In this document: one piece after another, positions 20,141 through 34,919 of the stretch
Position numbering within the stretch: the stretch's first letter is position 1
Layout: every line of letters begins with the position of its first letter
Origin: a virus
Lineage: Duplodnaviria > Caudoviricetes
DNA: 64,000 bases
Virus record (IMG/VR): IMGVR_UViG_3300031088_000008
Span: 192,001 to 256,000 of that record
Reading direction: 5' to 3' (one strand)
The notes under the pieces: model-generated
Told to the model about the DNA's origin: nothing
Seen by the model: only the letters and a program-made list of their open reading frames with translations
Databases searched by the model: none
Program-made: the position numbers and the translations under genes

Positions 20141-20899
20141 TCAAAGTTGGCTAACGGAAACTTGATCAACAAACATTGCTGGACTGTTCGTCTTCTGAGA
20201 GATCAACCTAACGAACATTTGATTGCCGGTAACAAAATTGAAATCATAAGGTTTCCACTCTGTGGTGAGATCTATTGTGGTGTTCACGGCATAGGCCAAG
20301 TTAGTATAGACCAGCAGGTGTAACTGTGTGGGTTGGCTTTCCGCGCGTGCCCACACCCTAACCCTATAGTTGGTACTGCCCGGCAATGCGTTGAAGTACC
20401 CAGTTGTTATGTCCGATGGGTTACCCGATGCTACCGGATCCAGCCTTAGCATCCTAGATCCCTGTAGAGCTAGGGGACTGGCCACTATAGTGGCCGCACC
20501 ATAGTTTACCACCCACACACCATTACCCTCGAATGCATCAGAGAAGACAGCGGTTCCGCTCTGAACAAGTACAGTCTTCACCGTGGAGTTCGTGCTCACT
20601 GTCTCGGTCCCAATGGTTGCTGTTACTCTGCATTGTAGGTTAGTGGCACTGCTAGGCCAATAGGTGTCTTTGTTTGGACTAAACTTGGCCTTGACTCCAT
20701 TGACCAGCCACTCATAGGTTACCGTATCGGGTACTCTATTGGTGGCCCAGTTGACTTTGAACTGCTCACCTATCCTCGTGCCAGTGATAGTTGGTATGGC
20801 AGTAAAGGCAAGTGGTGGGACAACAATCAGCTTGCTTGGTGCCTCGCGGCTGATCAGCTTTCCAATAGGTCGGAACGCTCCTGTGAACTTCATTGCCAT
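20141..20899 (-). CDS. Virion protein, Ig-like plus carbohydrate-binding-like domain
   Basis: TYEWLVNG...LQCRVTAT Ig signature; C-terminal YRVRVWAR...LTTEWK.Y.F.F. Confidence 0.65.
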   Translation of the reverse strand: MAMKFTGAFRPIGKLISREAPSKLIVVPPLAFTAIPTITGTRIGEQFKVNWATNRVPDTVTYEWLVNGVKAKFSPNKDTYWPSSATNLQCRVTATIGTETVSTNSTVKTVLVQSGTAVFSDAFEGNGVWVVNYGAATIVASPLALQGSRMLRLDPVASGNPSDITTGYFNALPGSTNYRVRVWARAESQPTQLHLLVYTNLAYAVNTTIDLTTEWKPYDFNFVTGNQMFVRLISQKTNSPAMFVDQVSVSQL

Positions 20900-21288: not shown

Positions 21289-22623
21289 TTATCTAAGGTA
21301 GGAGTTGCGTGTTGCCATAATATCATTCCAGCTTTGGTAGCCAGAGGGCACCCCGTATTTGAAGGGCTCTGCCCCTGCGTTAATGGACCACTCTCCCCTG
21401 ACAGTAACGTTGGGCTCAGTGATACAAAAGTAGTTTTCCAAGTTCATATTGCCGTATGGATCCCAGTCCAATCCCAGTGACGCGGGATCGCTGGCAACTG
21501 GTGTGCCCATCCAACCCTGCTCATCTCTGAGGTACCATTTGCTCTGAAAGTATTGAGGAGTATTCATTGCAAAGCCCCAAGTCTTCGTCCCACCAACGGG
21601 AGTTGCTCGTGCTCCACCTCTATTCAAAGACGCTGCATTGACTGTCAATGCTAGGCTGGTTGCCAGGATGCCGCTTTCCTGTGTGTCGCCGGCACCTCCC
21701 AACACGAAGGCATTCGTCCTTCTATAGTGTCTGGTACCAAATCGAGAACTAGCGGCACCAACTTTGTGGGCGGTTACCTCGAAATACATCTTGCTCATGT
21801 TGGGGATTGGAACGTTACTGTATGCGCTGGCAATGAACGATGTGGAAACTGTGCTATTGGTAAGTGAAACTCTAGTATCATTTACCTGCACTCCACCATA
21901 ACCGGCCATCAAGCGCACCTTGTGGTCGCGATAGCCAAGGAAATTGTAGTTGGCTGGAAGATAGGGTGTTGACAGTTGTCCTGCGTTCAGAGTAATATTC
22001 AAGCCTGTTGCTGCTAGAACTTGCACCATGGGAGTAATGGATCCAGCGATACCAGTGCTACTTGCCATGGAATAGCTGAGTGTTCCCATGTCCTGCGTGG
22101 TAACTGGTGAGCCTAAGGTAGCCCAAACACCATTGACATGAAAGGTCGTCTTGATAGTGTTGGTTCCAGCACCTGAGGCATCAACCACCATGCCCACAAT
22201 ATCACCGTTCTTTAGTTCTGGAAAATACTTTCCCAATACAGTGGTGCTACTGCCGGAAAAGACTGTACCATCCGTTCTAAGCCACACACCATTGAGTGTG
22301 TTAGCGGTAATCGCGCTTGTACTGCCCACTCCCCAAGCGTTGGTCCAACCCAGTCTGCTAAGTGCTCTGATGTCATTGATGCGCCACTCAACGTATCGTC
22401 GATCGTTGTAGATGTTGGTGTTGATTACCGCATGGGAAAGAGTGGTAACCTTCTTTTGAATCGTGAGACCATTGTCAAAAAAGTCATAGACATTTGACGC
22501 GGTATCATAGGTCGCACCTTGGAAACTTGGGTACATTCCATCAAATACTTGGGAAACCAGAGGAGGAGTGGTCACCTTAATAAATGGGATAGGCTTGAAG
22601 GCGCCAGTAAATTTCAAAGACAT
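21289..22623 (-). CDS. Virion protein with SPRY/ConA-like domains
   Basis: YVEW, GDIVGMVVD, YFEVT, NAGAEPFKYGVPSGY motifs; AAAGGAG RBS. Confidence 0.7.
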   Translation of the reverse strand: MSLKFTGAFKPIPFIKVTTPPLVSQVFDGMYPSFQGATYDTASNVYDFFDNGLTIQKKVTTLSHAVINTNIYNDRRYVEWRINDIRALSRLGWTNAWGVGSTSAITANTLNGVWLRTDGTVFSGSSTTVLGKYFPELKNGDIVGMVVDASGAGTNTIKTTFHVNGVWATLGSPVTTQDMGTLSYSMASSTGIAGSITPMVQVLAATGLNITLNAGQLSTPYLPANYNFLGYRDHKVRLMAGYGGVQVNDTRVSLTNSTVSTSFIASAYSNVPIPNMSKMYFEVTAHKVGAASSRFGTRHYRRTNAFVLGGAGDTQESGILATSLALTVNAASLNRGGARATPVGGTKTWGFAMNTPQYFQSKWYLRDEQGWMGTPVASDPASLGLDWDPYGNMNLENYFCITEPNVTVRGEWSINAGAEPFKYGVPSGYQSWNDIMATRNSYLR

Positions 22624-22696: not shown

Positions 22697-23857
22697 TTAG
22701 TTGTGGAGTACGACTACCAGCTTGTCCAGCTTGCTGTCCTGTACCGCGGGGCTTACGATCTCAAGATAGTCCGCAAGAACCAGTGCTCGATCGCTGCTCG
22801 TTGGCACCGCAATAGTTCCAACTGTCTCACCGGCCAAGAAGGTGATCGTACCAATATTGGTACCGTTCTTGGCGATGTTGAACACGGTGTCCGCATCTGG
22901 TGCAACCAAGACCTTGGCCTTGCTGTTTCCAACAACGATCGTGAAGTCATCTGTTACCACGTCGGCACGGCTGCGGGCATTAGCTGCCATGGTTGGTACG
23001 GCGTTCATGTAGAACTTTACCGCGTAGGTCTGAACACTTGTGGAACCACTACCGCCGGGCACTGCCCAAGTTCCATCTGCCCTCAGATACTTGGTTGTAC
23101 CGCCACCACTCTTTGGTACGATACCAGCGGTCGTGCTGGTGAACACGGGCTTGTCGGCGTCCGCAGTATTGTCCACGTTGGAGAGACCAACCGTTGTCTT
23201 GTCCACTACGACGAAAGCCTTGCTTCCATTGAGGAACTTGGTTGTTGGCGAGGTCGTGGGTGCAACCAGCTTGTCTTCCTTGCCATCCAGTGCCGCTTGT
23301 GCCAGGGTACTGATGGGCTTGGAGAGGTCGCTGGTGTTATCAACGAGTGCCAGACCAACTGCCGTCTTGTTCAAGTCCTGGAAGGTCTTGTCACCACGGT
23401 AATACTGTCCAACGCCACCACCGGTTACGGTTGGTTCCTTGGCATCAAGTGCAGTCTTGGTTGCCGTGCTGATTGGCTTGTTGGCATCACTGGTGTTGCT
23501 GACATTGTCGAGCAACAATAGTGTCTTGGCTTCCAGGGGATCCAAGTTCTCAATGGCACCTGTGTTGGCGCTCTTGCGTCCCAACAGGATTCCACTGTTG
23601 GTTGTCAGACCGCTGCTGGTGATGCCACCCTTGTTTACCTTGGTACCTAGGGTGTCCTGGAGATCCTCGTCATCAAGCAGGTTGCCCCAAGTCTTGTCAC
23701 CCTTAAAGTATTGGGCGGGCTGGGCAAAGGAAATAGAAGGTTCCTTGCCACTGTAAAGTTCGGTGAAGTTGGCGTTTGCTTTACTGAACGCCAAGTTCAG
23801 CTTGTCACCAGTGCCGTCGTTGGCCGTGGTTCCAACATTGATAGTCTGCTTTGCCAT
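22697..23857 (-). CDS. Tail fibre/baseplate protein
   Basis: N-terminal INVGTTANDGTGDKL (T4 gp9/gp10-type) and three NV(D/S)NT(S/A)DxxKP repeats. Confidence 0.8.
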   Translation of the reverse strand: MAKQTINVGTTANDGTGDKLNLAFSKANANFTELYSGKEPSISFAQPAQYFKGDKTWGNLLDDEDLQDTLGTKVNKGGITSSGLTTNSGILLGRKSANTGAIENLDPLEAKTLLLLDNVSNTSDANKPISTATKTALDAKEPTVTGGGVGQYYRGDKTFQDLNKTAVGLALVDNTSDLSKPISTLAQAALDGKEDKLVAPTTSPTTKFLNGSKAFVVVDKTTVGLSNVDNTADADKPVFTSTTAGIVPKSGGGTTKYLRADGTWAVPGGSGSTSVQTYAVKFYMNAVPTMAANARSRADVVTDDFTIVVGNSKAKVLVAPDADTVFNIAKNGTNIGTITFLAGETVGTIAVPTSSDRALVLADYLEIVSPAVQDSKLDKLVVVLHN

Positions 23858-26297: not shown

Positions 26298-28304
26298 CTA
26301 TTTGTCACCTGGCGGAAACTTGTAGTATTTACTCTCAGACTGGAGTACCTTATCAAAGGAAGTCAGCTGAGTGGTACGGTTCTCCGCATTGTCGGGACCA
26401 TCAAAGGTTGTCAGCGCACCAGTATCTGGATCGAAATCAAAAGTAGTCGAGGTAAAGCCATCACTTAGGAGAAGGTACCTATCCACTGAGATAGTCGTAC
26501 CCTGTAAGTCCTCGTTGAATCCTGCTTGCTCCAAGGCTCTTACCAGTGCGGGACCCGATCCTGCCTTAACGTAAGCCAGCTCAATGACAGTTTGGTATCC
26601 AGGAATGGTTGCTGGCTTTCCAGCTTCCTGTTCACTCATCATCCAGAGTGGCAAACCCTCTCGACCAACCAGTCCATAGCCGCGCGTTCCAGCAGTCTGG
26701 GCCTGTTCTGCCCAGTCCTGTCGGTTGCGATTGCTCTGCATGTCCAGCCGCATGTTACGGATACTATTGGGAAAGTAATGGCTGTCTTCCTTGGATAGGT
26801 TCATCACAGGAATTGCCGTCTGCTTTTGCCCTGGCTGGTAACGAGATAGAGTTACCTCTTTGTTTCCAGCATCAAATCCACCAGCACCTGACATTGGATC
26901 AATAACCGTCAGGTAGAGTACATCATAGAGGTGGACACCCTCTGGACTCCTGGCGCGACTGCTGGCCAGCTTTCCAATCCTCCAAGTGGTTGGATGGTGA
27001 TAGTCCTTGAGTTTGTCCAAAAAGCTACCATCTTGAACATAATTCAAGCCGGCGGCTACCAAGATGTTGTATTCCTTTTTCTTACCAAACAATTGGTCGC
27101 TGGGTCGGAAGTTGTTGTCACGTCCCAACAAAGTTAGTTCATGCGGTGCCTTGGCCGATGGTTCTTTCAGCTCTGCGGTGTTGCCCCAAATCCACCGGAC
27201 AATCTTTCTCCGTGCATCGCCAGGAACATTTACCTGCAAGGTTGTCACACTATCGGAGGCAAAGATGCTGCGAATGGTCACGCTAAAGCTGCGCTCGCTT
27301 GCCACACTACTCTGGCGAACCTCACCAGTGATCTGGTTTTGAAAGACCACTCGGGCCTCAACCTTGAACTCAAAGGAAGTATTGGTTACCACATAGGGGC
27401 AACGTCCAAGTATCAGTCCAGTGTTGGGATCAAGGAGGAGACCATCGGGAAGTGGATTGCTCCTGCCGGTCAAAGTGTAGCGGATGATCTGCACTTCCAG
27501 GTTGTTGCTTCCGTTTACCTGATACTGTGGTACTGCCTTGACTGCAAAGTGACTGGGATAGGTCTCATAAGTGGATCCTAGGCTTCCCGCAGGAGTCTCC
27601 CACCTAACCGTATCGCTGAGTCGGGCATCCAGGACGATCTCTGAATTGAGTGTGATCCTGTAGGTTTTCTCTGAGGTACGGGGCGCACCCTCGCCATGAG
27701 GATTGCGAGCCACGTCATCGGGATCGCGGGCGTACACCTTAAAATAGTAGGCACCAGGTTGGTTGCCAGTAACCGTTGGTGATCCAATGATGCGAACAAT
27801 GTTGGGCTGCGCTTGCTCAACTGCCAGACCATTTGGAAGACCCTCGTGGGTACCTGGGATACCAGTACGAACACCCATTGCCTTGTAGGTCAGGTTGTCC
27901 ATGTCGGGGTTGATAATGTCCAGCTGGATGTTGACACTTGAGCCACGGTTTACCGCACCAAGATCCTGAAGACCAGCGGGCATTGCCCAGCTCTGTTCCT
28001 CATCCCTGGGGTCCACGATCCACTTGTAGGATCGATCAAAGGTCTTGGTTGGATCGGAAGCACTGACAGCACGAAAGACCACGGGATAGCTGTCCTGGTC
28101 TTTGGAGAGAGCCAAGATGGTTCCATAGATGCGTCGAGTAGCGCCATTGAAGTTTAGACCTGGGGGCAGGTCGCCGCCGATCAGGTCAATCCTCTGTGGA
28201 CTGTTGTTGAATTCGAGGAGAAGATCTACCACATCGCCACGGCGCCATGGTTGTCCACCATTCAAGAGCTTTCCACTTGCTGGAGACTTCCAAAGGTTTG
28301 CCAC
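26298..28304 (-). CDS. Putative Ig (He_PIG) domain baseplate/virion protein
   Basis: GDLPPGLNF, LPDGLLLDPNTGLILG, WETPAGSLG repeats. Confidence 0.75.
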   Translation of the reverse strand: MANLWKSPASGKLLNGGQPWRRGDVVDLLLEFNNSPQRIDLIGGDLPPGLNFNGATRRIYGTILALSKDQDSYPVVFRAVSASDPTKTFDRSYKWIVDPRDEEQSWAMPAGLQDLGAVNRGSSVNIQLDIINPDMDNLTYKAMGVRTGIPGTHEGLPNGLAVEQAQPNIVRIIGSPTVTGNQPGAYYFKVYARDPDDVARNPHGEGAPRTSEKTYRITLNSEIVLDARLSDTVRWETPAGSLGSTYETYPSHFAVKAVPQYQVNGSNNLEVQIIRYTLTGRSNPLPDGLLLDPNTGLILGRCPYVVTNTSFEFKVEARVVFQNQITGEVRQSSVASERSFSVTIRSIFASDSVTTLQVNVPGDARRKIVRWIWGNTAELKEPSAKAPHELTLLGRDNNFRPSDQLFGKKKEYNILVAAGLNYVQDGSFLDKLKDYHHPTTWRIGKLASSRARSPEGVHLYDVLYLTVIDPMSGAGGFDAGNKEVTLSRYQPGQKQTAIPVMNLSKEDSHYFPNSIRNMRLDMQSNRNRQDWAEQAQTAGTRGYGLVGREGLPLWMMSEQEAGKPATIPGYQTVIELAYVKAGSGPALVRALEQAGFNEDLQGTTISVDRYLLLSDGFTSTTFDFDPDTGALTTFDGPDNAENRTTQLTSFDKVLQSESKYYKFPPGDK

Positions 28305-28325
28305 TACGATACTCCCTAGTTTCTA

Positions 28326-28355
28326 TATTTACCTACGGGGCGGGAGCGGTAAATA
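28326..28355. promoter_or_regulatory. Back-to-back TAAATA late-promoter boxes
   Basis: TATTTA 28326-28331 and TAAATA 28350-28355 between divergent structural operons. Confidence 0.65.
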
Positions 28356-28376
28356 GGGCACTAGGTGGAGATGTTG

Positions 28377-28841
28377 ATGAGTATCAAATTGATTGGCCGT
28401 TACAAGCCCCACGGTAGAGTACACTTCAAGAGAATCTACCGAGCCCCAGCAGTTGCCAACCCTCCTGTTTGGGTTACCAGCAGTGGATTGATTGGTGCCT
28501 ACAAAGAAGGCGAAGCCATTGATCTGGCGTTGATTGCCAGCGATCCCAATGGTGACATTCAAAGCTATTCAGTACATGATGGTCTTCTTCCCGACGGTGT
28601 ATCACTGAATGCAATCTCTGGTCACCTTCTTGGTACCATTGGTCAGGTTGGACAGGACACCACGTTTACCTTTACGGCTCGCGTCACGGATCGGACTGGA
28701 CTCTTTGCAGACCAGCAGTTCAACCTTGTGGTAAAGGATCTGGGAACGCAAGTCAGCTGGGAAACACCAAGTGGTAGCTTGGGAGCCGGTGACAGTGGTA
28801 TGGATTACTCCAAGCAAGTAAAGGCAAACAGCAATGGCTAA
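28377..28841 (+). CDS. He_PIG Ig-domain adaptor, module 1 gene A
   Basis: One full PPVW...LPDGVSL...FTARVTD domain plus a C-terminal partial domain. Confidence 0.8.
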   Translation: MSIKLIGRYKPHGRVHFKRIYRAPAVANPPVWVTSSGLIGAYKEGEAIDLALIASDPNGDIQSYSVHDGLLPDGVSLNAISGHLLGTIGQVGQDTTFTFTARVTDRTGLFADQQFNLVVKDLGTQVSWETPSGSLGAGDSGMDYSKQVKANSNG

Positions 28842-29997
28842 AGGACAGATCCAATACACGATTGCTGGCGGTGATCTTCCCGTTGGCGTTAGAATGGAAC
28901 CCAACACTGGTGCCCTAATGGGCAACTTGAGTCCGGAGAATGTTGGTGCAGGTCCCGTTTGGAATGGACCTGACAATGGTGCCGTTCTAGGAAGTGCAAA
29001 CGTTGGTGACAATGTCAACTTCACGGCCATCAATGTTGCACCACGTGCAGGCAAGACGCTTGCAGGTGTTGCGGTTGTTGGTAGGCGTCCACTTCCCTGG
29101 GGTCTCAGAATGGAACCCAAGACTGGTGCCATCACAGGAAAGGTTGCAGAACTCAAAGGTGAACAGCTTAACCAAACAACCAATACCAATCCACCACTTT
29201 GGGTCACACAGTTTGGTACTCTGGCCAGCTTCTCGGAAAGTGCAACGGTAAGCCTAACGGTTGCCGCAACACCACAGGCAAACAAGACACACAGAAGTTA
29301 CACCGTTGCTTCTGGTGGTCTGCCCTGGGGATTGAGCTTGGATCCCCGCAGTGGTAAGATCACAGGAACTGCTCTGGAACTTAAGGCTCCTGGCTTTGAT
29401 CTTGGCCTGAGTCCATCGGTGTTGACACCTCCGGTGTGGACCACACTTCCTGGAACCCTTAAGGTGTTCAACGAAACCGATGTTCTAAGCACCGCTAACG
29501 CGAATACTATCACGTTGGCTGCATCTGGACAAGCCGGTAAGACAATGGCAAGTTACCGAGTAATTGGTGGCGCTCTGCCCTGGGGCTTTGGTATTGATCC
29601 AAGGACTGGTGTCATTTCAGGAACGGCCGCAGAAGTAAAGCTGGCAACCGATCCCGTCTATTATGATCGTACCAAGGATCCCGTGTTGTCCAACACCGTT
29701 ACGGTAAATGGTAGCTCAATGGTGTTGACCAGCGATGGTTCCAGCTTGGGATCATTTGCCAAAGGTGCCGCGGTATCTGCTCAGATGGTTGTTCAACCAT
29801 ACGCAGGTCGAACCGCCCGAGCACACTTGGTCAATGGAACTCTACCAATTGGTCTTACCTTTGACAGCACGGGCAAGATTCAGGGAACTATTGCGTCCAC
29901 TAAGTATGTGACTAGTGGAGTCTACAATTTTACCGTAAGGGTCGTGGATAATATTCAGGCTTACAGCCTCCGCGCCTATTCTATCACTGTTCAGTAA
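28834..29997 (+). CDS. Multi He_PIG Ig-repeat protein, module 1 gene B
   Basis: Five LP(W/V/I)G...G.I.G repeats. Confidence 0.85.
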   Translation: MAKGQIQYTIAGGDLPVGVRMEPNTGALMGNLSPENVGAGPVWNGPDNGAVLGSANVGDNVNFTAINVAPRAGKTLAGVAVVGRRPLPWGLRMEPKTGAITGKVAELKGEQLNQTTNTNPPLWVTQFGTLASFSESATVSLTVAATPQANKTHRSYTVASGGLPWGLSLDPRSGKITGTALELKAPGFDLGLSPSVLTPPVWTTLPGTLKVFNETDVLSTANANTITLAASGQAGKTMASYRVIGGALPWGFGIDPRTGVISGTAAEVKLATDPVYYDRTKDPVLSNTVTVNGSSMVLTSDGSSLGSFAKGAAVSAQMVVQPYAGRTARAHLVNGTLPIGLTFDSTGKIQGTIASTKYVTSGVYNFTVRVVDNIQAYSLRAYSITVQ

Positions 29998-30008
29998 AGG
30001 AACAAACA

Positions 30009-31283
30009 ATGGCAAACTTCAACTTTACCGTTCGCGCCACGGACAGTGACGGTGCATACGCTGATCGTAATTTTGCGATCACCATCAATAACACTCGTGT
30101 TGAGCGCTACATGGTTGTTGACAACATTCACGCTTATACCAGTCCCGATCTTGTCAACTGGACCACACGAAACAACCAGGGTGGTTGGGACGTTTCCTAT
30201 GGCAACAGCATGTGGTTGATTGCAACCACCAGCGCGACTCCAGCTGCGACTCCTCAGGGCCTAGCATCACTCGGCGGTAGCGCCTATTATGCCAAGAGCA
30301 CCTTTGTTGTTCGAAAGAGCCCCGATGGTGTTAACTTCAGCATCATCAATCAAGCAGACATGACCTTTCTAAAGCCTGATGGCACCGCCTTTGTGGTCCC
30401 CTCAGTGGCCACCAACTACATGGTCAACGGTCGCCTGTCCTTTTCCAATGGCTTCTTTTGGTATCCAATGAGCTGGGGAACAAATTACACCACGACCGCG
30501 GCCAACTATACTTCTTATATTGCACGAAGCCCCGATGGTATTACTTGGACGATGTTTGCTTCACCAAACAAAGGTGCTTTTTACTATGATAACAGCCAGT
30601 ATGGCCATTATTTTCGTTCCTTCCACAAGGTAACGGACAGTGGCGCCGATCTATTCCTCCCCAGCTATGGCACGGCAAATGGTCACGTTGGTGGTCTCTA
30701 TGGATGGAAGAGCAGCGATCTTGGTGCTACTTGGACACCAGTCATCGACAGCACAGGAAAGGTAAACAATTCAACCGCGTTTATCTCCACGTATCTGACC
30801 CGCATCAATGGTCTTTATCTGGCAGCCAACCCTTCTAGCACAAGTCAGCCAGTCATGGTAAGCAATGATGGATACAATTGGTCCCCTTGTAATGTGATGG
30901 CCAACTCCATTAATGGTCAGGTAGCTGACATTGTCTATGCAAATGGAACCTTGTATGCTCATAGTTTCTCGTCAACCAGTCTATCTGGTTCATATTCCAG
31001 CACCCTGACGAGCACCGATGGCATCAATTGGACCAACGTTACACCAGCTGGCATGCAGATGTCGGCCAATAGCCCAAGTACAAACAATGTGATGACACTG
31101 ATTTACAAGAACGGCTACGTGATTCACGGACAGAGTTCCGCTTCAACTTCCTCTCAGTATCCCATGTATTACCAGTTCGCTGGTTCGGCTGATGGATTCG
31201 TCAGACCGGCTACTCCCTTTGTTGGTTCTGGCACTCCGACGCCATTTACCTACACCAACGGTATTGCGGCAATGGGAAGCTAA
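30009..31283 (+). CDS. Asp-box/BNR beta-propeller protein (putative receptor-binding), module 1 gene C
   Basis: Repeated SPDG(I/V)xW, SSDLGATW, STDGINW; N-terminal FTVRATD. Confidence 0.8.
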   Translation: MANFNFTVRATDSDGAYADRNFAITINNTRVERYMVVDNIHAYTSPDLVNWTTRNNQGGWDVSYGNSMWLIATTSATPAATPQGLASLGGSAYYAKSTFVVRKSPDGVNFSIINQADMTFLKPDGTAFVVPSVATNYMVNGRLSFSNGFFWYPMSWGTNYTTTAANYTSYIARSPDGITWTMFASPNKGAFYYDNSQYGHYFRSFHKVTDSGADLFLPSYGTANGHVGGLYGWKSSDLGATWTPVIDSTGKVNNSTAFISTYLTRINGLYLAANPSSTSQPVMVSNDGYNWSPCNVMANSINGQVADIVYANGTLYAHSFSSTSLSGSYSSTLTSTDGINWTNVTPAGMQMSANSPSTNNVMTLIYKNGYVIHGQSSASTSSQYPMYYQFAGSADGFVRPATPFVGSGTPTPFTYTNGIAAMGS

Positions 31284-31296
31284 TCTATACGATACT

Positions 31297-31327
31297 TTGG
31301 GGAGAGTGGAAACGCTCTCCCCATTTC
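31297..31327 (+). terminator. Rho-independent terminator
   Basis: TGGGGAGAG-loop-CTCTCCCCA then TTT. Confidence 0.7.
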
Positions 31328-31364
31328 CATGAGTGGGTAAATAGACGACTAATGGAGGTAAACG

Positions 31365-32084
31365 ATGAGCATTCGCATCACAGGTCGGTACAAACCCCGT
31401 GGAATACTTCGATTTGCACCCCTGGTTACTGTTCCTTCCTTTGAGACACTTGCATCCATTACGCCAACAAGTGGTCAAATGGGCACCACATTCACAGGTG
31501 TGGATCCCATAGTCAGGAATGCAGTGATCATCAATCGAGCGTGGTTGTTGAATGGTGTAGTGGTTCCCAACCAGACTCTCAATACCTACCTTAGTGATGG
31601 TACGGGAAGTCTAGTCTACAGGGTCACGGCTAGGGGTCAGGGAGGAACGGTTGTTTCCTCATCCACCCCAGTAACCGTTACGGCCAATCCTGCCAAGCAG
31701 AACGCGCCACGATGGATAACTCAGCCAGGTCTTCTGGGAACCTTTGCGGAAGGTTCCAGTATCAGCATTCCACTACAGGCAAGCGATCAGGACAACAATA
31801 TTGCCAGCTATTCCATTACCGGCGGCACGCTGCCCAATGGTACATCGCTGAATATGTTCGATGGTCTATTATCGGGAACACTGGCCGAGGTTGCCTCCGA
31901 TACCGTCTATACTTTTGAGATCACGGTCACGGATCGTACCAACCTCAAATTGGTGGGAAGTTTCTCCATCAACGTTGCCAACGTCAAGACCACGGTTGTC
32001 TGGAACACCGACAATGATCAGTCACTGGCATCCCCGGCCCCTGGTGAGCCGGTGAGCGTTTCCTTGGGAGCATCGAGCAGCTAA
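31365..32084 (+). CDS. He_PIG Ig-domain adaptor, module 2 gene A
   Basis: Paralog of 28377..28841 with an extra Ig domain; TAAATA at 31338. Confidence 0.8.
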   Translation: MSIRITGRYKPRGILRFAPLVTVPSFETLASITPTSGQMGTTFTGVDPIVRNAVIINRAWLLNGVVVPNQTLNTYLSDGTGSLVYRVTARGQGGTVVSSSTPVTVTANPAKQNAPRWITQPGLLGTFAEGSSISIPLQASDQDNNIASYSITGGTLPNGTSLNMFDGLLSGTLAEVASDTVYTFEITVTDRTNLKLVGSFSINVANVKTTVVWNTDNDQSLASPAPGEPVSVSLGASSS

Positions 32085-33229
32085 TGGCAAAGACACTGAA
32101 GATCCGCTACACAGTTCAGTCGGGCCCTTTGCCCAATGGACTAACATTGAACCCCGATACAGGTCTTCTGGAAGGCAATGTGGGCTGGGACGCACTTGGG
32201 CTAGGGCCTCGATGGACAGGCCCCAAGGCGGGCTCCATTGGCGCCTACAATGAGAACGATCCATTCGATGCCGCAACCTTCTCGGCCACAACTGATAAGA
32301 CGCCGGTCAGATACAGTATCGTCGGTGGTGTGATCCCCTGGGGTCTGGTGTTTAACGCACAGAGTGGCATGTTGACTGGCACGATCTCCCCGCTAAAACA
32401 GAGAACCAACGAGACGGCATCCAACTATGATGGCCCGGCTTGGAACACTTCCTTTGGTACCCTGGCAAACTTTGATGAAGGTTCGACCTCATCGCTGGTT
32501 CTTTCCGCTACACCAATTGGCAACAGGACGATGCGTGGTTTCCAGATCGTTGATGGCTATCTTCCCTGGGGACTGAGGCTGGACTTGAACAGTGGTATTA
32601 TCTCTGGTAATACCGCGCCACTGAAGAACCCCGGTGCCTATGTGGATGTTCCCAAACTGCCCGTTCCAGTCTGGACCACACCCGGCGGCACGATGGGAAC
32701 TTTTGATGAGTTGGCAACCTTCAACCTAACTCTCGCGGCTACTCCAGCCTCTGGTCGTTCAATGGCAAAATACAACATCAACCGTGGTGCATTGCCATTT
32801 GGTTTGAGGCTAAACCAGAGAACAGGTGCTATCACTGGTGACTTCGCCAACATGTTCGTTGAAGAAGCTAGTTTTGTTGATCCGGCTAACAATCCAACGA
32901 TCTCCAACGCGATGGTAATTCAGAGTGGAAACGCTATCGTGGCAGATGGTGGGTCTCTGGGCTCCTATGCCAAAGGTACCGAGGTAAGTATTGGTTTGAT
33001 TGCAAGGGCGATCACAGGGCGCCAGATCAAGAGCTACCAGATAACCAGCGGTTATCTACCATTTGGTCTGAGGTTGAATCTTCAAAATGGTGTAATCTCT
33101 GGAACCGTTCTAAACAACATTAGAACACAGAGTGGAACCTATACTTTCACCGTTCAAGTTTACGACAAAGGCGATGCTCTGCTTCGTCAGAACTCGGTAA
33201 GCCGAACCTATTCTATCACTGTCCAGTAA
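32084..33229 (+). CDS. Multi He_PIG Ig-repeat protein, module 2 gene B
   Basis: Paralog of 28834..29997; both end YSITVQ. Confidence 0.85.
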   Translation: MAKTLKIRYTVQSGPLPNGLTLNPDTGLLEGNVGWDALGLGPRWTGPKAGSIGAYNENDPFDAATFSATTDKTPVRYSIVGGVIPWGLVFNAQSGMLTGTISPLKQRTNETASNYDGPAWNTSFGTLANFDEGSTSSLVLSATPIGNRTMRGFQIVDGYLPWGLRLDLNSGIISGNTAPLKNPGAYVDVPKLPVPVWTTPGGTMGTFDELATFNLTLAATPASGRSMAKYNINRGALPFGLRLNQRTGAITGDFANMFVEEASFVDPANNPTISNAMVIQSGNAIVADGGSLGSYAKGTEVSIGLIARAITGRQIKSYQITSGYLPFGLRLNLQNGVISGTVLNNIRTQSGTYTFTVQVYDKGDALLRQNSVSRTYSITVQ

Positions 33230-33241
33230 GAGGTAAACCAA

Positions 33242-34468
33242 ATGGCAGTATTTCCTTTCACCGTCCGTGCAACTGATAGCGAAGGTTCCTATGCGGATCG
33301 TCAGTTCTCCATTACGGTTCGCAACAGTCGCGTTGAACGCTTTATGCTTCTAAATGCTACCGATGCCTACACCAGCCCAGATGCAACCTCTTGGACCAAG
33401 AGGACCGGTCAGGGTGGTACAATGTGTGCCTATGGTAATGGTTTCTGGCTCACAGTATTGACAAATCAGACCAATCAGTTTGGCTCGTTCAGTGGTATCT
33501 CCATCCGTAAATCAACTGATGGTATCAACTACCAGTTCTCTCCTGGTACTTCTCTGACCTTTCTAAAAAGTGATGGTACACCCTGGTCCACTAATCTTAA
33601 CCTATTCTTTGGCATGGGTACTCCAACCAGCGGCTACAAGTTGACGTTTTGGAACGGTAAGTTTTGGTTCCTGTCTCCGGGAAATACATTGACCTCTGCT
33701 GTCATCGCAAACACAATGCTCTTGTGGTCGTCGCCGGATGGCCTGACGTGGACCTCGACGGTTCTCAATACGTCCACCAGTGCCACCAATGCCATTAGCA
33801 TGAACTCTGTTGGAAACATCTTTTCTGTCAGCGTTTCCGATGGTGTAATGATGGTTCCAAACTATGCTCTAGGTGGCACCACCTTCTGCATGGGTTGGGT
33901 AACCAGCGATGGCGTAAACTTTACCCAGCTTAAGAACAGTGCAAGTTCCGCGGCAACTAATCAATACAGTCACAGCCTGACGCGAATCAATGGTCTATAC
34001 CTGTCCATGTACAATCAGGTTACCGGTACTGGTACATCTTCCTATAACATCTATCAGTTTTCTACTGATGGTCTTAACTGGACAACCGCACCATTGCCCA
34101 CCACCCCAAGTGGATCAAACTACTCAGGTCCGTTCTTTTATATGAATGGCTTGGTTTATAGTTTCTACTCGTCCACTGTCGCCAACCAGCCTGCTTCATT
34201 CCTTTACTCCAGTGATGCAATCAATTGGACCATTGGCCAGTTTCAGAGTTCTACCAATGCCACTGGTAGCTTTCCCTACTCGGTTGTTGCGAAGAATGGC
34301 TTGCTGGTTGCAGCTTGTCAGAAACAGATGGCTACTGACCTGCCAAACTCTTCCCCCGGCACTCCCACCAATGGTATTAGGGTGTCGGTTGATGGCTTGA
34401 CCTTTACCAGTGTGAGTCTTCCAGGATTGCCAACTGACTTGGTTTCGGACTTGGCTGCAATGAGCTAA
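33242..34468 (+). CDS. Asp-box/BNR beta-propeller protein, module 2 gene C
   Basis: Paralog of 30009..31283; starts FPFTVRATDSEGSYADRQF. Confidence 0.8.
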   Translation: MAVFPFTVRATDSEGSYADRQFSITVRNSRVERFMLLNATDAYTSPDATSWTKRTGQGGTMCAYGNGFWLTVLTNQTNQFGSFSGISIRKSTDGINYQFSPGTSLTFLKSDGTPWSTNLNLFFGMGTPTSGYKLTFWNGKFWFLSPGNTLTSAVIANTMLLWSSPDGLTWTSTVLNTSTSATNAISMNSVGNIFSVSVSDGVMMVPNYALGGTTFCMGWVTSDGVNFTQLKNSASSAATNQYSHSLTRINGLYLSMYNQVTGTGTSSYNIYQFSTDGLNWTTAPLPTTPSGSNYSGPFFYMNGLVYSFYSSTVANQPASFLYSSDAINWTIGQFQSSTNATGSFPYSVVAKNGLLVAACQKQMATDLPNSSPGTPTNGIRVSVDGLTFTSVSLPGLPTDLVSDLAAMS

Positions 34469-34474
34469 GGGTGT

Positions 34475-34503
34475 GGCCCAGGGTTCCTTAAAACCCTGGG
34501 CCC
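34475..34503 (+). terminator. Hairpin terminator ending late operon
   Basis: GCCCAGGGTT-loop-AACCCTGGGC. Confidence 0.6.
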
Positions 34504-34622
34504 ATTAACTATACCTGTTAGGGTTAATAAAAAGAGTTGGAAAGTGGCTCTTATTCTGGTTGACTGGCTCTTTGTTGGTGCTAATTCTGGTACATCGGAA
34601 ACGCACACAGGAGTTTGGCAAA

Positions 34623-34919
34623 ATGAAGATCGGTAAAGTGTTCGAGACCCTGCAGGCAAACAAGAAGGTCGAGAAGATCGAGTTCGCTTTCGGCAAGTCC
34701 AAAGTAACGCTCAAGCAGGGCTTCAAGACTGGCGACGAACGTGTTGCCCTTTGTGCAAACGCCCGGGAAGCAAACGCTTTCGTCCGCGCTGCCAAGCCCG
34801 TCGCTGTGGTGCCGGAAATGAAGACCGTTACGAACATGATGAGCGGCAAGCCCATCCAGATCGCTGCTGATACTCCTCGTTGCTGCGATCCGTCGACCGA
34901 ACTTTACTGGAGCATGTAA
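34623..34919 (+). CDS. Hypothetical early protein
   Basis: Promoter, AGGAG RBS, followed by GGGGC-TTCG-GCCCC terminator. Confidence 0.75.
   Translation: MKIGKVFETLQANKKVEKIEFAFGKSKVTLKQGFKTGDERVALCANAREANAFVRAAKPVAVVPEMKTVTNMMSGKPIQIAADTPRCCDPSTELYWSM

What the first reader, a model, noticed from the sequence alone, without database searches (positions are those of the whole stretch)
28377..34468. Split Ig domains: a three-gene adhesin module that may assemble by beta-strand complementation
Seen: a full He_PIG unit in gene A reads PxW.T..G....A / Y....G.LP.G..L...SG...G / FTF..RVTD......F...V. Gene A then ends with only the first part (VSWETPSGSLG...VKANS), gene B starts with only the middle part (IQYTIAGGDLPVGVRMEPNTGALMG), and gene C starts with only the last part (FNFTVRATDSDGAYADRNFAITIN) before a beta-propeller. 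Gene B's three internal repeats also lack the last hairpin, and only its final repeat is complete. The same breakpoints recur in the second module. Inference: several copies of the propeller C plug their N-terminal hairpin into incomplete Ig folds of B, making a branched multivalent fibre, analogous to pilus donor-strand exchange.
Basis: partly seen in the sequence, partly recalled or inferred. Interest (0 to 1): 0.85.

Follow-up and report, generated by a model that had tools for sequence, protein, structure and literature searches.

The report
Phage fibre joined by split Ig domains
Three neighbouring genes of a giant phage each encode different strands of the same immunoglobulin-like fold, so a stalk protein with four unfinished domains is probably completed, and loaded with propeller-shaped heads, by a two-strand plug at the start of the head protein.

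Summary
In both modules (28377-31283 and 31365-34468) gene A ends with strands A-B of a He_PIG Ig domain. Gene B starts with the middle strands, has three internal repeats without the last hairpin, and ends with one complete domain. Gene C starts with exactly that hairpin and continues as a seven-bladed propeller.

- **Pfam placement:** the pieces fall on complementary parts of the 96-position profile: B head 35-70, internal repeats 12-69, C start 72-96.
- **Conservation:** the same cuts occur in Agrobacterium phage Atu_ph07, Sinorhizobium phage Phosso and 7 uncultured large-phage loci.
- **Separate genes:** every gene has its own start codon, and the frame relations vary, so this is not one frameshifted protein.
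- **Plug conservation:** the hairpin is 70% identical across the C family; the propeller is 29%.
- **Docking model:** A1 + B1 + four C1 hairpins put one hairpin in each of the four sockets (ipSAE 0.65, best control 0.02). This is a prediction, not a measurement.

Stoichiometry, virion location and adhesin function were not tested. The closest known systems are pilus donor-strand complementation, the Tuc2009 BppU-BppA hairpin joint and KP32-type docking peptides. This scan had already noted the same layout on other DNA.

The parts
28377..28841 (+). Gene A1 (154 aa), the anchor protein. It has an N-terminal peptide shared with three other proteins of the locus (residues 1-17, 28377-28427), one complete He_PIG domain (residues 25-120, 28449-28736) and a C-terminal tail holding only strands A, A' and B (residues 121-154, 28737-28838).
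   Evidence: In the complex model the tail residues 121-152 touch a C hairpin.
28834..28944 (+). B1 head (residues 1-37): only the middle strands (C, C', D/E) of a He_PIG domain. With the A1 tail it forms the 'junction socket'.
   Evidence: Pfam profile positions 35-70 of 96. Socket-HMM positions 37-63. The start overlaps the A1 stop by 8 nt.
28945..29673 (+). B1 internal sockets 1-3 (residues 38-120, 121-197, 198-280): He_PIG repeats with strands A to E but no F-G hairpin, joined by low-confidence linkers.
   Evidence: Pfam profile 13-64, 12-65 and 15-69 of 96. Socket HMM positions 1-69 three times. Block pLDDT 38-85 when folded alone. Each socket takes one hairpin copy in the complex model.
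29674..29997 (+). B1 last domain (residues 281-387): a complete He_PIG domain with its own F-G hairpin, followed by the stop codon.
   Evidence: Pfam profile 9-95 of 96, E 1.2e-11. Block pLDDT 89-94. No hairpin touches it in the complex model.
30009..30098 (+). C1 plug (residues 1-30): a free F-G beta-hairpin of a He_PIG domain at the very N-terminus.
   Evidence: Pfam profile 72-96 of 96. Strands 2-11 and 17-26 in the AlphaFold2 model. Mean pairwise identity is 70% for the plug and 29% for the rest of C. Residues 4-29 of all four copies are buried in sockets.
30099..31283 (+). C1 head (residues 31-424): a seven-bladed beta-propeller with Asp-box-like SxDGxxW turns.
   Evidence: AlphaFold2 pTM 0.84. 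VIA-align best Z 19.1 (rmsd 3.9, 308 aligned), with GH74, sialidase-type and other propellers at Z 15.5-18.6. The aligned range starts at model residue 21 or later in all 50 rows and at 26 or later in 47. Foldseek result.
31299..31322 (+). An 8-bp G+C-rich inverted repeat in the C1-A2 spacer, possibly a transcript end or processing site between the two modules.
   Evidence: Read directly. The terminator scan did not call it because there is no T run.
31365..32084 (+). Gene A2 (239 aa): the same N-terminal peptide, one extra ~85-aa beta domain, one complete He_PIG domain, and a tail with strands A-B only (residues 207-239, 31983-32081).
32084..33229 (+). Gene B2 (381 aa): head (residues 1-38), three sockets and one complete last domain. 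It is 39% identical to B1.
   Evidence: TAATG stop-start overlap with A2.
33242..34468 (+). Gene C2 (408 aa): plug (residues 1-30, 33242-33331) followed by a propeller. It is 31% identical to C1 overall, but the plug is about 75% identical.

Best explanation
A, B and C are three separately translated structural proteins that assemble by rebuilding He_PIG Ig domains across chains.

- B is a stalk of four unfinished domains ('sockets') followed by one complete domain. Three sockets lie wholly within B. The fourth is built from the A tail (strands A, A', B) and the B head (strands C to E).
- Each socket lacks the F-G hairpin. The first ~28 residues of C are that hairpin.
- Inserting the hairpin pairs its F strand with the socket's C strand and its G strand with the A/A' strands. 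This closes the beta-sandwich and hangs a seven-bladed propeller on the stalk.
- The junction socket needs all three proteins, so it also fastens B to A.
- A carries an N-terminal peptide shared with two other proteins of this tail-fibre locus. It probably ties the whole assembly to the virion.

The result would be a branched appendage with several heads, up to four C per B here and more where B is longer.

Shown: the split, its conservation, and that the genes are separate. Predicted by a model with controls: the docking geometry. Inferred: stoichiometry, virion location and binding of host glycans by the propeller.
For: - **Complementary pieces.** The pieces fall on complementary parts of one Pfam profile and of a home-made socket HMM.
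- **Ordinary arrays keep the hairpin.** In 27 longer He_PIG proteins, 202 of 243 socket-HMM hits are followed within 30 residues by a loose F-G motif. The C-family profile matches 11 of these 27 (E <= 0.001), and in all 11 essentially only at its positions 2-31 (one stray hit at 193-225, i-E 2). So the C start is homologous to the He_PIG hairpin.
- **Conserved cuts.** 45 of 45 C homologues start with the hairpin within 5 residues. In the profile search, 40 of 42 further short representatives start with it by a strict pattern and the other 2 do so by eye. 0 of 96 long hits carry it. 14 of 14 B proteins start at the same strand. 10 of 10 A proteins stop after strand B.
- **Plug under stronger constraint than head.** Mean pairwise identity is 70% (minimum 46%) for the plug and 29% (minimum 19%) for the propeller, over 351 pairs.
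- **Gene order varies in the expected way**. L008 has one 667-aa B (head + 7 sockets + 1 complete domain) followed by two C genes. L005 and L006 have A-B-C-B-C.
- **Complex model.** A1 + B1 + 4 x C1(1-36) scored ipSAE 0.65 (runs 0.65, 0.59, 0.68), best of 3 controls 0.02. That mark was reached by 58 of 80 solved complexes and 2 of 110 mismatched pairs. The runs agree in at least 81% of contacts and the partner pLDDT is at least 63.
- **Contacts in the model.** They cover A 121-152 and B 4-268 but not the complete last domain. The lowest-error pairs join hairpin residues 6-10 to B 156-160 (strand C) and B 121/123 (strand A), the canonical Ig pairing.
- **B alone.** The internal repeats fold with low confidence.
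- **C alone.** The hairpin lies outside the propeller; aligned ranges start at about residue 29-31.
- **Neighbours.** Nearby genes match tail-fibre and baseplate families.
Against: - Nothing here is experimental.
- The complex model may simply be restoring a fold it knows. Its pass therefore repeats the sequence pattern rather than testing it independently. The tool also warns that this job (own alignments, six chains) differs from its calibration.
- Only 36 residues of C were used, so four full propellers may not fit side by side.
- The A tail has no significant match on its own (i-E 0.023-5.1).
- L005 and L006 have a second B without its own A, so a junction socket is not always paired one to one with an A gene.
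- Gene numbers (one or two C per B) say nothing about protein ratios.
- No PHROG or Pfam family links B or C to virions.
Confidence: 0.6

Rival explanations
1. A linear 1:1:1 fibre. Only the junction socket (A tail + B head) takes a C hairpin. The three internal repeats of B are self-sufficient shortened Ig variants, or are closed in some other way such as by pairing between B chains in an oligomer.
For: - There is one C gene per B gene in most modules.
- Internal repeats reach block pLDDT up to 85 when B is folded alone, so they have some local structure.
- Steric fit of four full-length propellers was not tested (one search used residues 1-36 only).
Against: - Internal repeats and the junction socket match the same HMM and lack the same profile positions 70-96.
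- B contains no spare F-G sequence besides that of its last domain.
- The complex model fills all four sockets, and its lowest-error contacts are in an internal socket.
- L008 has a B with seven internal sockets and two C genes.
Confidence: 0.22
2. The three genes give one polypeptide through programmed frameshifting or stop read-through, or the breaks are sequencing errors, so the Ig domains are not really split.
For: - B2 and C2 are in the same frame, separated by one TAA and four codons.
- 7 of 13 B-C junctions examined are in frame.
- 11 of 12 A-B junctions put B in the same relative frame (+2).
Against: - The breaks are conserved at 25-70% protein identity in independent isolates and metagenomes, which excludes sequencing error.
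- Every B and C starts with ATG or GTG at the same residue.
- B-C offsets are 0, +1 or +2, and two in-frame cases have a second stop.
- A-B overlaps are the ordinary ATGA or TAATG coupling types. The B frame is open for only 0-12 codons upstream, and I saw no slippery heptamer in the junctions printed.
- A1-B1 needs +1 while all the others need -1.
- In L005 and L006 a B gene follows a C gene directly.
- Even read through, the internal B repeats would still lack hairpins.
Confidence: 0.02
3. There is no strand complementation. The partial segments are flexible leftovers of domain decay or linkers, and A, B and C either associate by other surfaces or do not associate at all.
For: - There is no experimental evidence of binding.
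- The model could be completing a familiar fold by habit (caveats).
Against: - The free hairpin is the most conserved part of C: 70% against 29%.
- It is kept at residue 3-5 in every family member seen, which decay would not do.
- The missing parts are exactly complementary.
- The controls in the complex job scored 0.00-0.02.
Confidence: 0.1

Closest known systems
Donor-strand complementation and exchange in chaperone-usher pili (Fim, Pap, Caf1). Established knowledge, recalled; no paper was read here.
   Same: An Ig-like fold is encoded without its last strand element and is completed by an N-terminal segment of another subunit. Folding and assembly are thus the same event, and the fibre is held together by shared beta-sheets.
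   Different: - Here two strands (the F-G hairpin) are missing, not one.
- The donor sits on a different protein that carries a propeller head, so the product is branched rather than a linear polymer of like subunits.
- One socket is itself made from two chains.
- No chaperone, usher or exchange step is evident.
- The setting is a phage particle and the domain family is He_PIG.
Lactococcus phage Tuc2009 baseplate tripod: the BppU C-terminal hairpin and BppA domain 2 (PMC4742702; passages of the results section read).
   Same: [quoted passage not shown]
   Different: - It is a single joint between two proteins.
- The hairpin is C-terminal and sits on the scaffold, not on the head.
- There is no tandem array of sockets and no three-chain domain.
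- Pfam found nothing but He_PIG-type families in A and B.
[quoted passage not shown]
   Same: A conserved N-terminal peptide of about 29 residues on the secondary head protein is the docking element. In that paper, deleting it prevents incorporation while the rest of the protein still folds. The logic is modular plug and socket.
   Different: - The socket there is a T4 gp10-like branching domain of a trimeric tailspike. Here it is a row of incomplete Ig domains.
- That system has one docking site per RBP1. Here there are four or more per B.
- The passages read do not describe strand sharing ('strand' occurs 0 times in the text).
Ordinary tandem He_PIG arrays in large surface proteins (for example P0199, 1308 aa).
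   Same: It is the same domain family. Their F-G hairpins match the C-family profile at positions 2-29, and their first two thirds match the socket HMM.
   Different: In those proteins the hairpin follows its own domain in the same chain (202 of 243 hits by a loose motif). In B it is absent from the head and from all three internal repeats.

Membership tests
He_PIG (Pfam PF05345) Ig-like domain | Match to the profile above the gathering score | tested here: met
   A1 41.8 bits, B1 98.1, A2 50.5 and B2 93.7 against a cut-off of 24. The C1 plug alone scores 16.5 bits (E 0.012), below the cut-off, on profile positions 72-96.
He_PIG (Pfam PF05345) Ig-like domain | The whole ~96-position domain lies in one polypeptide | tested here: not met
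   B1 head covers 35-70, the internal repeats 12-69 and the C1 start 72-96. Only the A1 domain (14-95) and the last B1 domain (9-95) are whole.
Chaperone-usher donor-strand assembly | Ig-like subunit lacking its C-terminal strand, completed by an N-terminal extension of the next subunit | tested here: inconclusive
   The same principle appears in the model. But two strands are missing, and the donor is a different, head-bearing protein. No structure or binding data exist.
Chaperone-usher donor-strand assembly | A dedicated periplasmic chaperone and an outer-membrane usher encoded with the subunits | tested here: not met
   The neighbouring ORFs are phage tail-fibre-type or unknown proteins. 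No chaperone or usher family appeared in the Pfam or PHROG scans of the 11 proteins tested. Other small ORFs of the window were not scanned.
Tuc2009-type hairpin joint (BppU-BppA) | A beta-hairpin of one virion protein completes a beta-sheet of a partner's beta-sandwich | tested here: inconclusive
   Predicted for all four sockets: ipSAE 0.65, best control 0.02. The mark was reached by 58 of 80 solved complexes and 2 of 110 mismatched pairs, with contact agreement at least 81% and partner pLDDT at least 63. It has not been measured.
Tuc2009-type hairpin joint (BppU-BppA) | Sequence relationship to BppU or BppA | not tested
   No direct comparison was run. Pfam scans of A, B and C listed only Ig-type families.
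Branched RBP system with docking peptide (KP32 type) | A conserved N-terminal peptide of ~29 residues on the secondary head protein | tested here: met
   Residues 3-30 of C are 70% identical across 27 family members, against 29% for the rest. The peptide is present at the N-terminus in 45 of 45 homologues.
Branched RBP system with docking peptide (KP32 type) | A T4 gp10-like branching domain on the primary protein as the socket | tested here: not met
   B holds only He_PIG matches. A weak T4_gp9_10_N match (19.3 bits, cut-off 25) lies in a different protein of the locus, the 386-aa ORF at 22697-23857.
Asp-box (BNR-type) seven-bladed beta-propeller, for C | Propeller fold | tested here: met
   pTM 0.84. 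The best VIA-align row has Z 19.1, rmsd 3.9 and 308 aligned residues. GH74 xyloglucanases have Z 16.4-18.6 and sialidase-type chains Z 15.6-16.9. Foldseek probability is 1.00.
Asp-box (BNR-type) seven-bladed beta-propeller, for C | Pfam BNR or sialidase family match and catalytic residues | tested here: inconclusive
   C1 and C2 have no family above cut-off. PF13088 is precomputed for 4 of 45 homologues. SxDGxxW-like turns are visible in the sequence. Catalytic residues were not examined.

The most novel reading that the evidence does not exclude
B is a general loading rail and the 28-residue hairpin a universal connector.

- Heads from either module (C1, C2, and the two C genes after the long B of L008) could fill any socket. 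One phage would then display mixed, combinatorial sets of propeller heads on one stalk.
- The three-chain junction domain would act as an assembly check that forms only when anchor, rail and head are all present.
- The thin 'hairy whiskers' seen on Atu_ph07-like giant phages would be these single-chain Ig stalks, not classical trimeric fibres.
Probability: 0.25. Interest if true: 0.85.

Novelty: new variant of a known kind. Interest (0 to 1): 0.75.

Why it matters
- It would be a second, independent use in nature of the pilus principle of folding by borrowing strands. Here it would build a branched phage appendage with several heads from three gene products.
- It includes a domain that exists only when three chains meet.
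- It gives a testable structural role to a widespread set of 'hypothetical' proteins of giant phages. At least 54 C-type clusters at 50% identity are among the best 150 hits.
- It offers a candidate for the unexplained whiskers of Atu_ph07-like phages.
- It describes a small natural peptide-and-socket pair that could serve as a non-covalent connector in protein engineering.

Tried and rejected
- **DNA similarity:** only a 100-nt match to Atu_ph07, so DNA-level relatives were of no use.
- **Solved structures:** a sequence profile of B found no solved structure (0 hits at E <= 0.01), so the strand names follow the general Ig/He_PIG pattern and the model, not a solved relative.
- **Fused forms:**
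  - The profile search with the C family had no length limit. It gave 96 long proteins among the best 150. All matched from profile position 31 or later in their best stretch, and 0 of 96 carried the hairpin motif.
  - The 'longer' search with B1 gave 27 proteins, all ordinary He_PIG arrays and none with a C-type propeller match.
  - The tool itself calls a blank in this search weak evidence.
- **Loose motif counts:**
  - My 'core' regex under-counted domains.
  - My F-G regex gave at least two doubtful positives (L005) and two misses (L003_B1, Atu_B) on B proteins.
  - I therefore rely on the HMM and Pfam coordinates instead.
- **Promoter and terminator scan of 28200-34700:** no more sites than in shuffles, and the inverted repeat between the modules was not called.
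- **Literature:**
  - Five searches found no paper describing a He_PIG or Ig domain split between phage genes, or donor-strand-type assembly of phage fibres. In the listed rows, 'donor strand', 'strand complementation', 'strand exchange' and 'split domain' each had 0 occurrences.
  - This covers only the open-access library searched.
  - For PMC9700779 and PMC10253068 (hyperbranched fibres of phiKp24 and RaK2) I saw only the search listing.
- **Atu_ph07 paper (PMC6102473, passages):** I could not tell whether the A, B and C homologues are virion proteins.
- **Not done on principle:** I considered reading B2-C2 through the single in-frame TAA to fold a fusion. That would have used a genetic code to make a sequence rather than to test how the organism reads its DNA.
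- **Not attempted:** covariation between plug and socket residues, because there are too few paired modules.

Full report
**Where and what.** The window is bases 192001-256000 of a single 416,714-bp contig. By protein similarity its nearest named relatives are two giant phages. They are Sinorhizobium phage Phosso (469 kb; C1 29.4% identical over 96%) and Agrobacterium phage Atu_ph07 (490 kb; 29.1% over 69%). DNA similarity is negligible.

On the + strand lie two tandem three-gene modules:

| Gene | Coordinates | Length |
|---|---|---|
| A1 | 28377-28841 | 154 aa |
| B1 | 28834-29997 | 387 aa |
| C1 | 30009-31283 | 424 aa |
| A2 | 31365-32084 | 239 aa |
| B2 | 32084-33229 | 381 aa |
| C2 | 33242-34468 | 408 aa |

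Upstream on the minus strand are four further genes:
- a 668-aa He_PIG protein;
- an 806-aa protein matching a PHROG 'tail protein' family;
- a 386-aa protein matching tail-fibre and baseplate-connector PHROGs, with a weak match to the T4 gp9/gp10 N-terminus;
- two further proteins of 444 and 252 aa.

The setting is therefore a tail-fibre or appendage locus.

Whole-protein Pfam scans find He_PIG in A and B but nothing in C. Scanning the pieces separately places them on complementary parts of the 96-position profile:

| Piece | Profile positions |
|---|---|
| B1 residues 1-40 | 35-70 |
| B1 internal repeat 1 | 13-64 |
| B1 internal repeat 2 | 12-65 |
| B1 internal repeat 3 | 15-69 |
| B1 last domain | 9-95 |
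| C1 residues 1-36 | 72-96 |

The A1 tail is too short and too weakly conserved for Pfam. I therefore built a 70-position HMM from 42 internal repeats of 14 B proteins.
- It puts the last ~25 residues of 9 of 10 A proteins on its positions 3-29. Each hit is weak alone (i-E 0.023-5.1).
- It puts the first 42 residues of 14 of 14 B proteins on positions 32/37-61/64 (E down to 1.5e-10).
- It finds nothing meaningful in 27 C proteins.

The converse test also works. A profile of the C family matches 11 of 27 ordinary long He_PIG arrays (E <= 0.001). In all 11 the matches lie at its positions 2-31, directly after each socket-type match, apart from one stray hit of no weight. So the start of C is a He_PIG F-G hairpin. 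Ordinary arrays keep it in the same chain: 202 of 243 hits by a loose motif. B's head and three internal repeats lack it. In the whole genome the free hairpin stands at the start of an ORF only in C1 and C2.

**Not an artefact and not one protein.** The same gene borders are present in several places:
- in Atu_ph07 and Phosso;
- in 7 uncultured viral loci;
- in 15 B homologues;
- in 45 of 45 C homologues.

A profile search of 1.84 billion representatives gave the following among its best 150 hits:
- 54 short C-type proteins, all aligned from their first residue;
- 96 long propeller-repeat proteins, none with the hairpin.

The junctions look like ordinary gene boundaries.
- 12 of 12 A-B junctions are ordinary overlapping stop-starts of 1, 4 or 8 nt. 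The B frame is open for only 0-12 codons upstream.
- A1-B1 would need a +1 shift, and the other eleven a -1 shift.
- 13 B-C junctions have offsets 0 (7), +2 (5) and +1 (1), with purine-rich spacers. Two of the in-frame ones have a second stop.

Gene order also varies: A-B-C twice, A-B-C-B-C, and A-B(667 aa)-C-C. A search for longer relatives of B found only ordinary He_PIG arrays and no A-B or B-C fusion. The tool notes that a blank there is weak evidence.

**Structure predictions.**
- *B1 alone* (14-row alignment) folds with block pLDDT 89-94 in its complete last domain. The head and internal repeats reach only 38-85 and have few strands. The linkers are below 50.
- *C1 alone* (27 rows) gives pTM 0.84. 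It has a hairpin (strands 2-11 and 17-26) and then a propeller.
- *Structural alignments of C1* to solved seven-bladed propellers give Z 19.1 to 15.5. They include GH74 xyloglucanases and sialidase-type enzymes. They begin at model residue 26 or later in 47 of 50 rows and at 21 in the other three (Foldseek). So the hairpin is not part of the propeller.

**The docking test.** I gave the single complex job A1 (whole), B1 (whole) and four copies of C1 residues 1-36, each with its alignment.
- *Score:* the model supports binding; it does not show it. The score was 0.65 (runs 0.65, 0.59, 0.68) and the best of 3 controls was 0.02.
- *Calibration:* the mark was reached by 58 of 80 solved complexes and 2 of 110 mismatched pairs. 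The runs agree in at least 81% of contacts, and the partner's pLDDT is at least 63.
- *Contacts:* all four copies are buried through residues 4-29. Confident contacts cover A1 121-152 and B1 4-268, and none of the complete last domain.
- *Which copy sits where:* the named low-error pairs put copy 1 at B 41-43 and 79-81 (socket 1), copy 3 at B 121-123, 156-160 and 169 (socket 2) and copy 2 at A 150 (junction socket). That copy 4 fills socket 3, and that the B head shares copy 2 with the A tail, I infer by elimination from the interface list.
- *Geometry:* hairpin residues 6-10 pair with strand C of the socket, and the second hairpin strand lies by strands A/A'. This is the normal Ig arrangement.
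- *Effect on A and B:* their pLDDT was 72-74 with the hairpins and 54-55 with unrelated peptides.

Caveats on this test:
- The tool states that this job differs from its calibration.
- A model that knows the He_PIG fold may restore it from memory.
- Full-length heads were not included.

**Conservation.** Across 27 C proteins the plug (residues 3-30) is on average 70% identical (minimum 46%). The propeller is 29% identical (minimum 19%). That is what one expects if the plug must fit several sockets while the heads diversify.

The number of sockets varies. It is a head plus three internal repeats in most B proteins and a head plus seven in the 667-aa B of L008, which is followed by two C genes.

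**The anchor.** A proteins share an N-terminal peptide (M-x-I-R/K-F/I-x-G-R-Y-x-P-x-G). After it come 0-3 extra beta domains, one whole He_PIG domain and then the tail. In this genome that peptide opens only four ORFs: A1, A2 and the 252-aa and 444-aa proteins of the same locus. This suggests a common docking site on the particle for four different appendage proteins. I did not pursue it further.

**Comparison with what is known.**
- *Pili.* The principle of an incomplete Ig fold completed by a neighbour's N-terminal segment is that of chaperone-usher pili (recalled, not read here). This system donates two strands from a head-bearing protein to a tandem rail. It has one socket made of two chains and shows no chaperone or usher.
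- *Tuc2009.* Among phages, the Tuc2009 tripod structure shows a 25-residue hairpin of BppU completing a beta-sheet of BppA (PMC4742702, passages).
- *KP32 type.* KP32-type podophages attach a second tailspike through a ~29-residue N-terminal conserved peptide and a T4 gp10-like branching domain (PMC13352976, abstract and passages).
- *Literature.* Five searches found no description of Ig domains split between phage genes, within the open library only.
- *This scan.* It has recorded the same layout before in other genomes. I did not test those records.

**Verdict.**
- The split and its conservation are facts of the sequence.
- Assembly by hairpin insertion, with several heads per stalk, is the best-supported reading (about 0.6). 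It is backed by one controlled prediction but by no experiment.
- The main rival is a 1:1:1 linear fibre in which only the junction socket is used (about 0.2).
- A single recoded polypeptide is effectively excluded.
- I file it as a new variant of a known kind of assembly.

Noticed in passing
window 20141-20899 (-), 21289-22623 (-), 28377-28427 (+), 31365-31415 (+): Four proteins share an N-terminal peptide (M-x-[ILM]-[KR]-[FLI]-x-G-x-[FY]-x-P): the 252-aa, the 444-aa, A1 and A2. A pattern scan of the whole 416,714-bp genome found it at the start of ORFs of 100 aa or more only in these four. It may be a common docking peptide for four different appendage proteins.
   Followed up: partly
window 26298-28304 (-): A 668-aa protein has three He_PIG stretches. 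One is an unsplit domain whose strands read much like the A tail, B head and C plug joined in one chain. Its C-terminal ~330 residues have no family match.
   Followed up: no
window 22697-23857 (-): A 386-aa protein has a weak T4 gp9/gp10 N-terminal match (19.3 bits, below the cut-off of 25) and many PHROG tail-fibre or baseplate-connector matches. It carries repeated 'KPIST'-type motifs. It is a candidate hub for the proteins that carry the shared N-terminal peptide.
   Followed up: no
window 31299-31322: An 8-bp G+C-rich inverted repeat (loop of 8) lies in the 81-nt spacer between C1 and A2. It has no T run and was not called by the terminator scan.
   Followed up: partly
L005 6734-7888 and L006 3986-5131: In two related viral loci the second module is B-C only, with no A gene of its own. 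Its B still starts with the partial head. One A may therefore serve two different B proteins, or that head may stay open.
   Followed up: no
L008 3980-5983, 5980-7203, 7214-8428: A relative has one long B (667 aa: head, seven internal sockets, one complete domain) followed by two different C genes.
   Followed up: partly
protein P0199 (1308 aa): It has eleven complete He_PIG domains and ends with a partial segment resembling the A tail (strands A-B only). This looks like a long A-type anchor from another large contig.
   Followed up: no
window about 36000: G+C content rises from about 0.50 (1-36000) to about 0.55-0.56 (36000-64000), just downstream of the two modules.
   Followed up: no
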